Source: Felixounavirus LF110P1 | Reading direction: 5' to 3' (one strand) | DNA: 64,000 nt | Sequence record: OZ035744.1 | Part shown: piece by piece, positions 39,756 through 40,541 of the stretch | How positions within the stretch are numbered: position 1 is the stretch's first letter | How the letters are laid out: the number at the start of each line of letters is the position of its first letter | The notes under the pieces: model-generated | Databases searched by the model: none | What the model saw: the letters and a program-made list of their open reading frames with translations, nothing else | What the model was told of the DNA's origin: nothing | Program-made: the position numbers and the translations under genes

Positions 39756-40541
39756 ATGGGTATTGTAAAAATCATCAATGGTGATATCTTTGCTGCATTT
39801 GATAAAGGTAAGTTTGACATCATTGGTCATGGTTGTAACTGCATGAACCTAATGGGCGCAGGTATCGCTGACAAGATTTCTAAACTTTACCCAAAAGCAT
39901 ATGAGACCGATACAGAAGTTTATCTCTATGCAGGTGGTATAGGTCACAAACCCTGTGAGAATTTACTAGGTAATTTCTCTGTAGCACGCTTAAAACAAGG
40001 TCGTATAGCTAACCTTTACACTCAGCTTAAGACTGGTAAAGATGCCCGATACAGTGCTTTAGAGTCATCTTTGAAACAGCTTAACAGATACTGTGAAGTT
40101 AATCAGTTGAAGAAAGTTGGTTTACCTATGATTGGTGCAGGTATCGGTGGACTTGACCCTCAAGCCATCACAGTTATCATCAATCAGGTGATGAAGAGTG
40201 TAGATGTTTATCTGTATGTCTATGAAGGCGAGATGTACCACAAGTTACGCTCAGGTTGGAAGAACTACTGTGAACCAGAATACTTTGCAGGTGTAGCAGT
40301 GTTCACAGATAACGCAGTTACCCTCTTCAGACGAAGAAAAGGTAAGATACATCAAAGTAACCCTCCGGTTGAAAAGATGTCTCTAAGTAACGCTCTAGTT
40401 ACCCACCTGTCAAAGAGCAATCACAGAATTGCTGTAACATTTGGTAGTGATGCAGAAGCTTATATCTATGCAAGAACTGATGAGGATATCGAGGCAATCT
40501 TCTCTTCACCAGAAGTTACCTTCTTAGACGCAAAGAACTAA
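39756..40541 (+). CDS. macro-domain protein (ADP-ribose binding/processing, candidate)
   Basis: N-terminus IINGDIFAAFDKGKFDIIGHGCNCMNLMGAGIADKI resembles the macro-domain core. Confidence 0.55.
   Translation: MGIVKIINGDIFAAFDKGKFDIIGHGCNCMNLMGAGIADKISKLYPKAYETDTEVYLYAGGIGHKPCENLLGNFSVARLKQGRIANLYTQLKTGKDARYSALESSLKQLNRYCEVNQLKKVGLPMIGAGIGGLDPQAITVIINQVMKSVDVYLYVYEGEMYHKLRSGWKNYCEPEYFAGVAVFTDNAVTLFRRRKGKIHQSNPPVEKMSLSNALVTHLSKSNHRIAVTFGSDAEAYIYARTDEDIEAIFSSPEVTFLDAKN

What the first reader, a model, noticed from the sequence alone, without database searches (positions are those of the whole stretch)
39756..40541. Macro-domain protein immediately upstream of the small-gene array
The N-terminal core (GDI...FDIIGHGCNCMNLMGAGIADKI) matches the macro-domain ADP-ribose-binding signature. 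Macro domains bind or hydrolyse ADP-ribose adducts. Possible roles are reversal of host ADP-ribosylating defences (DarT-like), regulation of the phage's own ART candidate at 44003, or processing of ADP-ribose-derived signals. Its position next to the regulatory repeats at 40610-40860 and the accessory array fits an anti-defence function.
Basis: inference. Interest (0 to 1): 0.6.

Follow-up and report, generated by a model that had tools for sequence, protein, structure and literature searches.

The report
Phage macrodomain, likely anti-DarT enzyme
This Felix O1-type phage gene encodes a real ADP-ribose-removing (macro) domain related to a phage T4 protein that defeats the bacterial DarTG2 defence; it carries an extra tail domain of unknown fold, so it is a variant of a recently described counter-defence enzyme, not a new kind of system.

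Summary
The ORF at 39756-40541 (+, 261 aa) is real, and its N-terminal 157 residues form a genuine macro domain. Pfam scores it above the curated cut-off. A confident AlphaFold model matches TARG1, DarG and Poa1p structures.

The window is a Felixounavirus (Felix O1-like phage). About 200 related genomes carry this allele, variously annotated "phosphatase", "macro domain protein" or "hypothetical".

The closest characterised relative is T4 Tk.4 (35% identity, E 2e-24). A 2025 preprint names it AdfM and shows T4 needs it to grow on DarTG2 hosts.

The catalytic lysine of DarG and TARG1 is replaced by an invariant glutamine (Q90, motif NLYTQ). This aligns with Gln85 of Streptomyces SCO6735, an enzyme shown to remove thymidine-linked ADP-ribose from DNA.

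The best reading is an orphan, antitoxin-like DNA de-ADP-ribosylase. This is inferred by homology and has not been tested in this phage.

New here:
- A roughly 100-residue C-terminal beta domain with no fold or family match, found only fused to this macro domain in Felix O1-like phages.
- Two alleles within the genus that share only 42% identity.

The proposed link to an ADP-ribosyltransferase (ART) at 44003 found no support. The positional argument is weak, because a terminator separates the gene from the small-gene array.

The parts
39756..40541 (+). Complete gene, 261 aa plus stop: two-domain macro protein (PHROG 335 'phosphatase').
   Evidence: ORF list. phrog_335 E 5.5e-113 over residues 1-260. 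About 200 Felixounavirus records carry it at 87% nucleotide identity or more.
39756..40226 (+). Macro domain (residues 1-157), ALC1/TARG1-like class.
   Evidence: Pfam Macro 30.5 bits against a cut-off of 22. Foldseek top hits are TARG1, DarG and Poa1p. 35% identity to T4 Tk.4 over residues 3-157.
39828..39869 (+). Codons for H25-G-C-N28-C...M33-G-A-G-I-A38: the HGCNC motif and first ADP-ribose-binding glycine loop.
   Evidence: H25, G26, N28, C29, M33, G36 and A38 are invariant in 30 family members. They align to DarG N22 / MGKG, SCO6735 H24/N27 and Poa1p H23/N26.
40011..40025 (+). Codons for N86-L-Y-T-Q90. Q90 occupies the position of the catalytic Lys of DarG (K80) and TARG1 (K84), and of Gln85 of SCO6735.
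   Evidence: N86, L87, T89 and Q90 are invariant and Y88 is nearly invariant in the family, T4 Tk.4 included. Alignments to TARG1, DarG and SCO6735.
40125..40151 (+). Codons for P124-M-I-G-A-G-I-G-G132: second (diphosphate-binding) glycine-rich loop.
   Evidence: P124, G127 and G129 invariant; I126, A128, I130 and G132 nearly invariant. Aligns to PPLGAGNGG of DarG, PRIGCGLDR of TARG1 and PRIGCGLAGG of SCO6735.
40227..40538 (+). Linker helix (residues 158-167) plus orphan C-terminal beta-rich domain (about 175-255: six strands and one helix). Function unknown.
39742..39748 (+). Shine-Dalgarno-like GGGAGAG, 7 nt before the ATG.
   Evidence: Read directly from the sequence.
39555..39755 (+). Upstream 66-aa CxxC...CxxC protein (phrog_2210). 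Its stop codon abuts the macro start, so the two are probably co-translated.
   Evidence: Annotated as a 201-nt CDS directly before the 'phosphatase' in SeKF_63. Identical protein upstream of the other macro allele in L006.
40571..40622 (+). Intrinsic-terminator-like hairpin (17 pairs) plus T-run, ending the transcription unit 30 nt after the stop codon.
   Evidence: Terminators are annotated at this place in phages XTG1, KhF2 and KhF3.

Best explanation
The gene encodes an orphan, antitoxin-like ADP-ribosylglycohydrolase of the phage AdfM type. Its N-terminal macro domain binds the ADP-ribose that DarT2-type toxins attach to thymidine in single-stranded phage DNA and hydrolyses the ribose-base bond, which restores replicable DNA and releases free ADP-ribose. 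Catalysis is most likely of the SCO6735 type: an invariant Gln (Q90), together with N28 and H25, positions the distal ribose and a water molecule, with no catalytic lysine. This would let the phage replicate in DarTG2-carrying Escherichia and Salmonella hosts. The C-terminal beta domain has no catalytic-looking conserved residues, so it probably acts as a binding or targeting module with an unknown partner. Shown here: the macro fold, the motifs, the homology and the architecture. Inferred: the substrate, the defence system countered, and the role of the C-terminal domain.
For: Macro domain by profile and structure. The best hits in the defence and NCBI libraries are DarG (E 2.4e-12 and 9.8e-13). 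T4 Tk.4 is 35% identical over the whole macro domain (E 2e-24) and shares the family-invariant HGCNC, NLYTQ and PxIGAGIGG motifs. In T4-like records the hit lies next to vs, which is the tk.4 position. Tk.4 is the single HIDEN-SEQ hit on DarTG2 hosts, and a clean knockout sensitises T4 (bioRxiv 10.1101/2025.11.20.689424). Q90 aligns to DarG K80 and TARG1 K84 and directly to SCO6735 Gln85. SCO6735 cleaves dT-ADP-ribose from DNA, rescues cells from DarT, and Q85A is inactive (PMC9411070). A different phage macrodomain (PhiKZ AdfM) removes DarT2 marks from DNA in vitro (PMC13309987). There is no DarT gene nearby, so the protein is an orphan. The macro domain is basic (pI about 9), as expected for a nucleic-acid substrate. 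The gene lies in the rII/nucleotide-metabolism block on the same strand. Two alleles only 42% identical, flanked by 85-95% identical DNA, fit the turnover of a gene under arms-race selection.
Against: No experiment exists for any Felixounavirus; literature searches found none. The T4 evidence is genetic and from a preprint, and 35% identity does not guarantee the same substrate. The protein scores far below the DarG equivalog cut-off (46.8 against 250 bits). SCO6735's Lys34, which is important for DNA activity, is Ala35 here, and SCO6735's lysine-bearing long loop is absent. The N-terminal half matches the yeast ADP-ribose-1''-phosphate phosphatase Poa1p best (E 3e-9). Macro domains of this class are often active on several substrates. 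The conserved C-terminal domain is unexplained.
Confidence: 0.6

Rival explanations
1. ADP-ribose metabolite salvage. The macro domain acts as a Poa1p-like ADP-ribose-1''-phosphate phosphatase. It would recycle ADPR-cyclic-phosphate or ADPR-1''-phosphate, the decay products of the ADPR-pyrophosphate intermediate made by the phage's own NAD+ reconstitution pathway (NARP1), back to ADP-ribose.
For: The window carries the NARP1 pair (Prs-like Adps at 29566-30447, NAMPT-like Namat at 30493-32274). The Bas63 study saw ADPR-PP decay to ADPR-cyclic-phosphate. The N-terminal half matches Poa1p best, including the HxCNC motif. T4 Tk.4 and PHROG 335 are annotated 'phosphatase / A1pp motif'. One relative (P0026) fuses the same Gln-type macro domain to a 'cyclic-phosphate processing' cREC_REC domain.
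Against: From my own knowledge of the T4 genome, T4 has Tk.4 but no NARP1, and Tk.4's phenotype there is DarTG2-specific. Poa1p's catalytic Ser30 aligns to Leu32 here. No cyclic phosphodiesterase partner was identified. The C-terminal domain has no catalytic-type conserved residues. The NARP1 paper does not mention a macro protein.
Confidence: 0.12
2. Reversal of protein or RNA ADP-ribosylation. The targets would be other host defence or toxin ADP-ribosyltransferases (CmdT-like mRNA ARTs, protein ARTs) rather than DNA marks.
For: The nearest structures, TARG1 and SCO6735, also remove protein-linked ADP-ribose. Several GenBank records call the gene 'O-acetyl-ADP-ribose deacetylase'.
Against: TARG1's Lys84/Asp125 dyad for Glu/Asp-linked ADP-ribose is absent. 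T4 carries the homologous Tk.4 yet is strongly restricted by the mRNA ART system CmdTAC, so this macro type does not neutralise that enzyme. The only genetic phenotype known for the family is against DarTG2.
Confidence: 0.15
3. Binding or destruction of ADP-ribose-derived immune signals (for example Thoeris gcADPR or His-ADPR), acting as a sponge or signal-degrading enzyme.
For: Macro domains bind ADP-ribose-containing ligands in general (established knowledge). The phage clearly invests in NAD+-related counter-defence through NARP1.
Against: No similarity to any known signal sponge or degrading enzyme was seen; the only PADLOC hit is DarG. The hydrolase-type residues H25, N28 and Q90 are invariant, which a pure sponge would not need. 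There is no supporting literature.
Confidence: 0.05
4. Partner or regulator of a phage-encoded ADP-ribosyltransferase at 44003-44545.
Against: ORF 44003 has no Pfam or PADLOC family and belongs to PHROG 3303 of unknown function. Sequence and 9-member-profile searches of the PDB give nothing below E 0.18. Its homologues are confined to Felix O1-like phages and carry no domain annotation. It lies 3.5 kb away, beyond a terminator. Its structure was not predicted, so a cryptic ART fold is not excluded.
Confidence: 0.03

Closest known systems
Phage T4 Tk.4 = AdfM (anti-DarT factor Macrodomain; bioRxiv 10.1101/2025.11.20.689424)
   Same: Homologous macro domain: 35% identity over residues 3-157, E 2e-24. 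Same invariant HGCNC / NLYTQ / PxIGAGIGG motifs, including Gln in place of the DarG lysine. Both are orphan genes in a lytic myovirus.
   Different: Tk.4 is 155 aa and macro-only, whereas this protein has an extra 100-residue C-terminal domain. The genomic neighbourhood differs (tk/vs cluster against the end of the rII-lysin-PNKP block). Function is tested genetically for Tk.4 only.
Streptomyces coelicolor SCO6735 (PDB 5E3B), a thymidine-ADP-ribosyl-DNA hydrolase
   Same: Same class and same active-site make-up: H24/N27/Gln85 correspond to H25/N28/Q90. Gln85 is essential for activity on DNA. Both are stand-alone proteins without a cognate DarT next door.
   Different: Distant in sequence (single-sequence E 0.65; profile E 1e-14). 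SCO6735's Lys34 is Ala35 here, and its mobile loop, 5 residues longer and carrying Lys89/93, is absent. It is bacterial and under DNA-damage control, and it has no C-terminal domain.
DarG2 antitoxin macrodomain (T. aquaticus 5M31/5M3E, M. tuberculosis 5M3I)
   Same: Best NCBIfam and PADLOC hit. Fold match with TM 0.81-0.85. N22 corresponds to N28, and the glycine loops are conserved.
   Different: Catalytic K80 is Gln here. The score is far below the equivalog cut-off. There is no DarT-binding C-terminal domain of the DarG type and no adjacent darT gene.
Chimallivirus AdfM (PhiKZ gp104; Cell Rep 2026, PMC13309987)
   Same: A phage-encoded orphan macrodomain that counters DarTG2 by removing ADP-ribose from DNA. 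This is the same proposed job.
   Different: PhiKZ AdfM is DarG-like and has the lysine (N23/K78). It is imported into the phage nucleus and belongs to a different sequence lineage.
Human TARG1/OARD1 (4J5R/4J5S)
   Same: Top sequence-profile and Foldseek hit (E 1e-16, TM 0.84-0.87).
   Different: Both residues of the K84/D125 dyad are replaced, by Q90 and G131.
Yeast Poa1p, ADP-ribose-1''-phosphate phosphatase (6LFQ-6LFU)
   Same: Best match for the N-terminal half, with the shared H-x-C-N-C...G-x-G-I-A motif. This is the origin of the 'phosphatase' label.
   Different: Poa1p Ser30 corresponds to Leu32 here, and Poa1p has Ser where this family has Gln90.

Membership tests
Macro domain (Pfam PF01661) | Profile match above the curated gathering score | tested here: met
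   30.5 bits against a cut-off of 22, E 3.9e-7, residues 25-138 covering profile positions 2-114 of 118.
Macro domain (Pfam PF01661) | Three-layer alpha/beta/alpha macro fold | tested here: met
   AF2 model with pLDDT 91. Foldseek probability 1.00 and TM 0.76-0.87 to TARG1, DarG and Poa1p.
Macro domain (Pfam PF01661) | Two glycine-rich ADP-ribose-binding loops | tested here: met
   M33-G-A-G-I-A38 and P124-x-I-G-A-G-I-G-G132 are invariant or nearly invariant, and they align to the loops of TARG1, DarG and SCO6735.
Macro domain (Pfam PF01661) | Actual binding of ADP-ribose | not testable with these tools
   Needs ITC or a thermal-shift assay, or a co-crystal structure.
TARG1-type glycohydrolase | Catalytic Lys84/Asp125 dyad | tested here: not met
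   K84 aligns to Q90 and D125 to G131.
DarG2 antitoxin (NCBIfam NF048014) | Equivalog score cut-off (250 bits) over the full length | tested here: not met
   46.8 bits; only profile positions 4-154 of 338 are matched.
DarG2 antitoxin (NCBIfam NF048014) | Active-site Asn (N22 in T. aquaticus) | tested here: met
   Aligns to the invariant N28.
DarG2 antitoxin (NCBIfam NF048014) | Catalytic Lys (K80) | tested here: not met
   NFPTK aligns to NLYTQ; the position is the invariant Q90.
DarG2 antitoxin (NCBIfam NF048014) | C-terminal DarT-binding domain | tested here: not met
DarG2 antitoxin (NCBIfam NF048014) | Adjacent darT toxin gene | tested here: not met
   No DarT hit among the ten neighbouring ORFs scanned against PADLOC, and no unexplained ORF of about 200 aa next to the gene.
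SCO6735-type (Gln) DNA dT-ADP-ribose hydrolase | Gln at the DarG-K80 / TARG1-K84 position (Gln85, essential) | tested here: met
   Direct profile alignment to 5E3B. Chain Q105 is native Gln85, taking the first 20 chain residues (the His-tag printed) as non-native; this offset is my own count. It aligns to the family's invariant Gln, which is Q90 here. The essentiality of Gln85 comes from PMC9411070.
SCO6735-type (Gln) DNA dT-ADP-ribose hydrolase | H24 / V25 / N27 segment | tested here: met
   AHVCN aligns to GHGCN: H25 and N28 are conserved, and V25 corresponds to G26. [quoted passage not shown]
SCO6735-type (Gln) DNA dT-ADP-ribose hydrolase | Lys34 and the extended mobile loop with Lys89/Lys93 that hold the DNA | tested here: not met
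   K34 aligns to A35. The 5-residue loop insertion (gmktg) is absent from the phage family.
SCO6735-type (Gln) DNA dT-ADP-ribose hydrolase | Hydrolysis of thymidine-linked ADP-ribose on ssDNA | not testable with these tools
   Needs a gel-shift or AMP-Glo assay on DarT2-modified oligonucleotides.
Phage AdfM, T4 Tk.4 type | Sequence homology to T4 Tk.4 with shared family motifs | tested here: met
   35% identity, E 2e-24. H25, G26, N28, C29, M33, G36, A38, N86, L87, T89, Q90, P124, G127 and G129 are invariant across 30 members, Tk.4 included.
Phage AdfM, T4 Tk.4 type | Single-domain architecture of about 155 aa | tested here: not met
   261 aa, with an additional folded C-terminal domain.
Phage AdfM, T4 Tk.4 type | Required for phage growth on DarTG2-expressing hosts | not testable with these tools
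   Needs a gene deletion in a Felixounavirus and plaque assays. No published data were found.
Poa1p-type ADP-ribose-1''-phosphate phosphatase | His23 and Ser30 (the residues mutated in the deposited Poa1p H23A and S30A structures) | tested here: inconclusive
   His23 aligns to the invariant H25, but Ser30 aligns to L32, which is variable in the family. Activity was not testable.

The most novel reading that the evidence does not exclude
The lineage-restricted C-terminal beta domain gives the enzyme a second, non-catalytic mode of action. It might bind and block DarT2 directly, as DarG's own C-terminal domain and SCO6735 do. Or it might dock the hydrolase onto the replisome or ssDNA, where DarT2 acts. 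Either way this would be an independently evolved two-pronged antitoxin mimic built on a previously unseen fold. The two 42%-identical alleles in the genus would then track different host toxin variants. A less likely extension is that the ADP-ribose released is handed to the phage's NARP1 enzymes, coupling DNA repair to NAD+ regeneration.
Probability: 0.2. Interest if true: 0.55.

Novelty: new variant of a known kind. Interest (0 to 1): 0.35.

Why it matters
If the inference holds, the widespread Felix O1-like phages of E. coli and Salmonella carry a DarTG2 counter-defence; these phages are used in typing, biocontrol and therapy. That would help explain and predict their host range on DarTG-positive strains. 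It would also extend the newly described AdfM class to a second large phage lineage. It would show that phage AdfM of the T4 type uses the lysine-free, glutamine-based chemistry known so far only from SCO6735. The conserved orphan C-terminal domain and the sharp allele dimorphism are concrete handles for asking how such enzymes are targeted and how they co-evolve with toxin variants. The gene itself is already annotated as a macro domain protein or phosphatase in public records, so the discovery value is moderate.

Tried and rejected
It was rerun without T4.

2. The C-terminal domain gave no informative match in four searches:
- Pfam gave nothing.
- BFVD gave only the orthologue in phage SUSP2.
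- The AFDB50 library was unavailable.

3. The exhaustive HMM search with the C-terminal profile returned a few large multi-stretch hits. These proved to be PQQ/BamB-type beta-propellers, a beta-meander resemblance that I rejected as homology. The one apparently stand-alone C-terminal protein (P0032) is the downstream half of a split or frameshifted two-domain gene.

4. DarG-like ssDNA mimicry by the C-terminal domain was rejected as a general property, because its net charge ranges from -5 to +4 among homologues.

5. The ART hypothesis for ORF 44003 was tested with PADLOC, Pfam, PHROGs, the PDB by sequence, and the PDB by a 9-sequence profile. All were negative.

6. Rfam found nothing in the intergenic repeats.

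7. Literature searches for Felix O1 or Felixounavirus or Bas63 together with macro domain or DarTG found nothing relevant. A search for 'AdfM' alone was swamped by unrelated text.

8. A guessed accession for Bas63 turned out to be another phage, so I did not verify that Bas63 itself carries the gene.

9. A first attempt to display the SCO6735 alignment failed because it ranked sixth. Prefixing the family profile with the His-tag sequence I assumed from the pET15b cloning brought it to the top; the match showed the tag is in the deposited chain.

10. A tblastn of T4 Tk.4 against the window was not completed, because the T4 locus file was missing from the sandbox. The pairwise BLASTP stands in for it.
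Full report
**Observation**

The window carries an ATG-to-stop ORF at 39756-40541 on the + strand, encoding 261 aa. A GGGAGAG ribosome-binding site lies 7 nt upstream. The stop codon of a 66-aa CxxC...CxxC ORF directly abuts the start codon.

The macro-domain call is solid:
- Pfam PF01661 scores 30.5 bits against a curated cut-off of 22.
- A profile of 30 family members hits solved macrodomains at E 1e-16.
- An AlphaFold2 model (pLDDT 91, pTM 0.90) superposes on TARG1, DarG and Poa1p with Foldseek probability 1.00 and target-normalised TM 0.76-0.87.

Only residues 1-157 are macro domain. 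Residues 158-261 are a linker helix plus a separate six-stranded beta domain.

**Origin and context**

The window is from a Felixounavirus (Felix O1-like myovirus of Escherichia and Salmonella). A 3-kb query is 98% identical to phage ekra, and the protein is 100% identical to that of Felixounavirus LF82P5. About 200 phage records carry this allele at 87% nucleotide identity or more. They annotate it variously as "putative phosphatase", "macro domain-containing protein", "O-acetyl-ADP-ribose deacetylase" or "hypothetical protein". It belongs to PHROG 335 "phosphatase" (E 5.5e-113).

The gene is the last one in a long same-strand block of ribonucleotide reductases, a Prs-like/NAMPT-like pair, rIIA, rIIB, a lysin, a PNKP-like protein, a spanin and small ORFs. 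A 17-bp terminator-like hairpin with a T-run follows 30 nt after the stop codon. Then come about 520 bp of non-coding DNA containing four direct repeats, and a TTGACT-17-TAATAT promoter-like site before the small-gene array. So the gene borders the array but is not part of its transcription unit.

Relatives only 31-34% identical, on metagenomic contigs, keep the same synteny: rIIA, rIIB, SLT lysin, HAD/PNKP, then the two-domain macro protein. The gene is therefore an old, fixed feature of this phage lineage.

**What the macro domain is most like**

In the NCBIfam and PADLOC libraries the only significant hit is the DarG antitoxin (E 2.4e-12 and 9.8e-13). The score is far below the DarG equivalog cut-off, and only the macro half of that profile is matched.

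The closest characterised relative is T4 Tk.4, at 35% identity over residues 3-157 (E 2e-24). In T4-like genomes the hit lies next to the vs gene, which is the tk.4 position. A November 2025 preprint found tk.4 to be the single transposon-sequencing hit on DarTG2-expressing hosts. It showed that a clean knockout sensitises T4, and it named the protein AdfM.

An unrelated, DarG-like macrodomain of chimalliviruses has the same name. It was shown biochemically to strip DarT2-made ADP-ribose from DNA.

Homologues of the macro domain occur in about 2,800 of 50,697 phage records.

**Active site**

Across 30 family members, T4 Tk.4 included, fourteen residues are invariant: H25, G26, N28, C29, M33, G36, A38, N86, L87, T89, Q90, P124, G127 and G129.

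- N28 aligns to DarG N22, and the two glycine loops align to the ADP-ribose-binding loops.
- The catalytic lysine of DarG (K80, motif NFPTK) and of TARG1 (K84, motif LITK) aligns to the invariant Gln90 of the NLYTQ motif. TARG1's D125 aligns to a glycine.

This is not a sign of inactivity. Streptomyces SCO6735 has Gln85 at exactly this position. It cleaves thymidine-linked ADP-ribose from DNA and protects cells against DarT, and it is killed by the Q85A mutation (PMC9411070).

I obtained the direct alignment to the SCO6735 chain (5E3B):
- The family's Gln aligns to Gln85, H25 to H24, and N28 to N27.
- SCO6735's DNA-holding Lys34 is Ala35 here.
- SCO6735's mobile loop, five residues longer and carrying lysines, is absent here.

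The N-terminal half on its own matches yeast Poa1p best, through a shared HxCNC...GxGIA motif (E 3e-9). Poa1p's Ser30 is not conserved. The phage family, T4 AdfM included, is therefore best described as a Gln-type (SCO6735-like) member of the TARG1/DarG/Poa1p class.

**The C-terminal domain**

Residues about 175-255 fold confidently, with pLDDT about 85-93 in the full-length model and 79 when modelled alone. The fold is six beta strands plus a helix.

- It has no Pfam family.
- In an exhaustive HMM search of 1.84 billion representative proteins it appears only fused behind this macro domain.
- The single "stand-alone" hit is the second half of a split gene.
- The remaining weak hits are beta-propeller repeats.

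Its only invariant residues are a Pro and a Gly, plus a nearly invariant Tyr. Its net charge varies from -5 to +4 among homologues. It therefore looks neither catalytic, nor like DarG's acidic ssDNA-mimicking domain, nor like an obvious DNA binder. The high pTM (0.90) suggests that it packs against the macro domain in a fixed way. Its role remains unknown.

**Allele dimorphism**

A second allele (P0009 type) is present in 13 Felixounavirus records at 95% identity or more, for example BPS17L1, Si3, finno and ECML-1. It is only 42% identical in protein to the window's allele, and no intermediates were found.

On one contig the upstream gene is identical in protein, and the flanking DNA is 85% and 95% identical. 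The stretch corresponding to window positions about 39899-40726 has been replaced. Both alleles keep the two-domain architecture and all catalytic motifs. Cassette-like replacement of this kind is what one expects of a gene under host-driven diversifying pressure.

**Mechanism proposed**

The protein is expressed from the rII/nucleotide-metabolism block. Its macro domain recognises ADP-ribose attached by DarT2-type toxins to thymidine in single-stranded phage DNA, and hydrolyses the linkage through a Gln90/N28/H25-organised water. This restores replication.

- Shown here: the fold, the motifs, the homology to T4 AdfM, the SCO6735-type active site, and orphan status (no DarT nearby).
- Inferred: the substrate, the defence system countered, and the timing of expression.

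I put the specific anti-DarT2 reading at about 0.6. A catalytically competent ADP-ribose-processing macro domain is near certain.

**Rivals**

1. *Poa1p-like phosphatase that recycles by-products of the phage's NARP1 NAD+ pathway.* The NARP1 pair is in this window at 29566-32274. ADPR-pyrophosphate was seen to decay to ADPR-cyclic phosphate in Bas63 infections. One relative fuses the same macro type to a "cyclic-phosphate processing" domain. Against it, T4 uses Tk.4 without NARP1 (my own knowledge of the T4 genome), and Poa1p's Ser30 is missing.
2. *Protein or RNA de-ADP-ribosylation.* The TARG1 dyad is absent, and T4, which carries Tk.4, is still restricted by the mRNA ART system CmdTAC.
3. 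*Sponge or degrader of an immune signal.* Nothing supports this.
4. *Partner of a phage ART at 44003.* That ORF shows no ART signal in Pfam, PADLOC, PHROGs or PDB searches by sequence or profile. Its structure was not predicted.

**Novelty and verdict**

The macro identity is already in public annotation. The likely function follows from very recent work on T4 and chimallivirus AdfM and on SCO6735.

What is new here:
- the conserved fusion to an orphan C-terminal domain restricted to Felix O1-like phages;
- the explicit recognition that the T4-type phage AdfM family uses the Gln-type active site;
- the sharp two-allele polymorphism.

I rate it a new variant of a known kind, of moderate interest (0.35). 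The identification and the first-listed role hold up. The ART link and the positional argument do not.

Noticed in passing
window 29566-30447 and 30493-32274 (+): A Prs-like (Pribosyltran/Pribosyl_synth) gene and a NAMPT-like gene sit directly upstream of rIIA. This is the arrangement described as NARP1 (Adps + Namat) in the Felixounavirus Bas63, which rebuilds NAD+ from ADP-ribose and nicotinamide. The phage thus carries at least two ADP-ribose-related functions within 10 kb.
   Followed up: partly
window 40615-40790 (+): Four direct copies of TCATTTTNNAANTGTGCAG (spacing 73, 39 and 45 nt) lie in the intergenic region after the macro gene's terminator. They occur nowhere else in the 64 kb (0.11 copies expected by chance). 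There is no Rfam match. The first copy overlaps the terminator's T-run. Annotated small 'hypothetical proteins' in relatives overlap these repeats and are probably not genes. Function unknown.
   Followed up: partly
window about 39899-40726; locus L006 433-1223: Cassette-like allele replacement. A second macro allele (42% protein identity, same two-domain architecture) replaces most of the gene, its terminator and the first repeats, between flanks that are 85% and 95% identical. Thirteen Felixounavirus records carry it. VpaE1_ev035 has this allele, whereas vB_EcoM-VpaE1 has the window's type.
   Followed up: partly
It is confined to Felix O1-like phages. It shows no ADP-ribosyltransferase or other family signal in any sequence or profile search. 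Its structure was not predicted.
   Followed up: partly
window 39555-39755 (+): A 66-aa protein with two CxxC pairs (zinc-ribbon-like, PHROG 2210) appears translationally coupled to the macro gene. It is identical in protein upstream of the divergent macro allele in L006. The small ORFs in the same position in distant relatives (L004, L005) are not clearly homologous.
   Followed up: partly
protein P0026 (339 aa, metagenomic): A relative with the same Gln-type NLYTQ macro domain is fused to Pfam PF20274 cREC_REC ('cyclic-phosphate processing receiver domain') instead of the Felix-type C-terminal domain. This hints that some members of this macro lineage act on ADP-ribose cyclic or 1''-phosphates.
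   Followed up: no
window 37032-37727 (+): A 231-aa ORF with a DIDGVL (DxDxT-like, HAD phosphatase) motif. Relatives annotate it as polynucleotide kinase, and distant relatives give weak or faint HAD_PNKP hits. It gave no Pfam hit here at E 0.001.
   Followed up: no
window 58000-63585 (+): A cluster of 26 tRNA genes, typical of Felix O1-like phages.
   Followed up: no
window 41463-41491 and 41935-41963 (+): The same promoter-like pair of hexamers (TTTACA, 17 nt, TAAAGT) recurs before successive small genes of the downstream array. This suggests each small gene or gene pair has its own early-type promoter.
   Followed up: no
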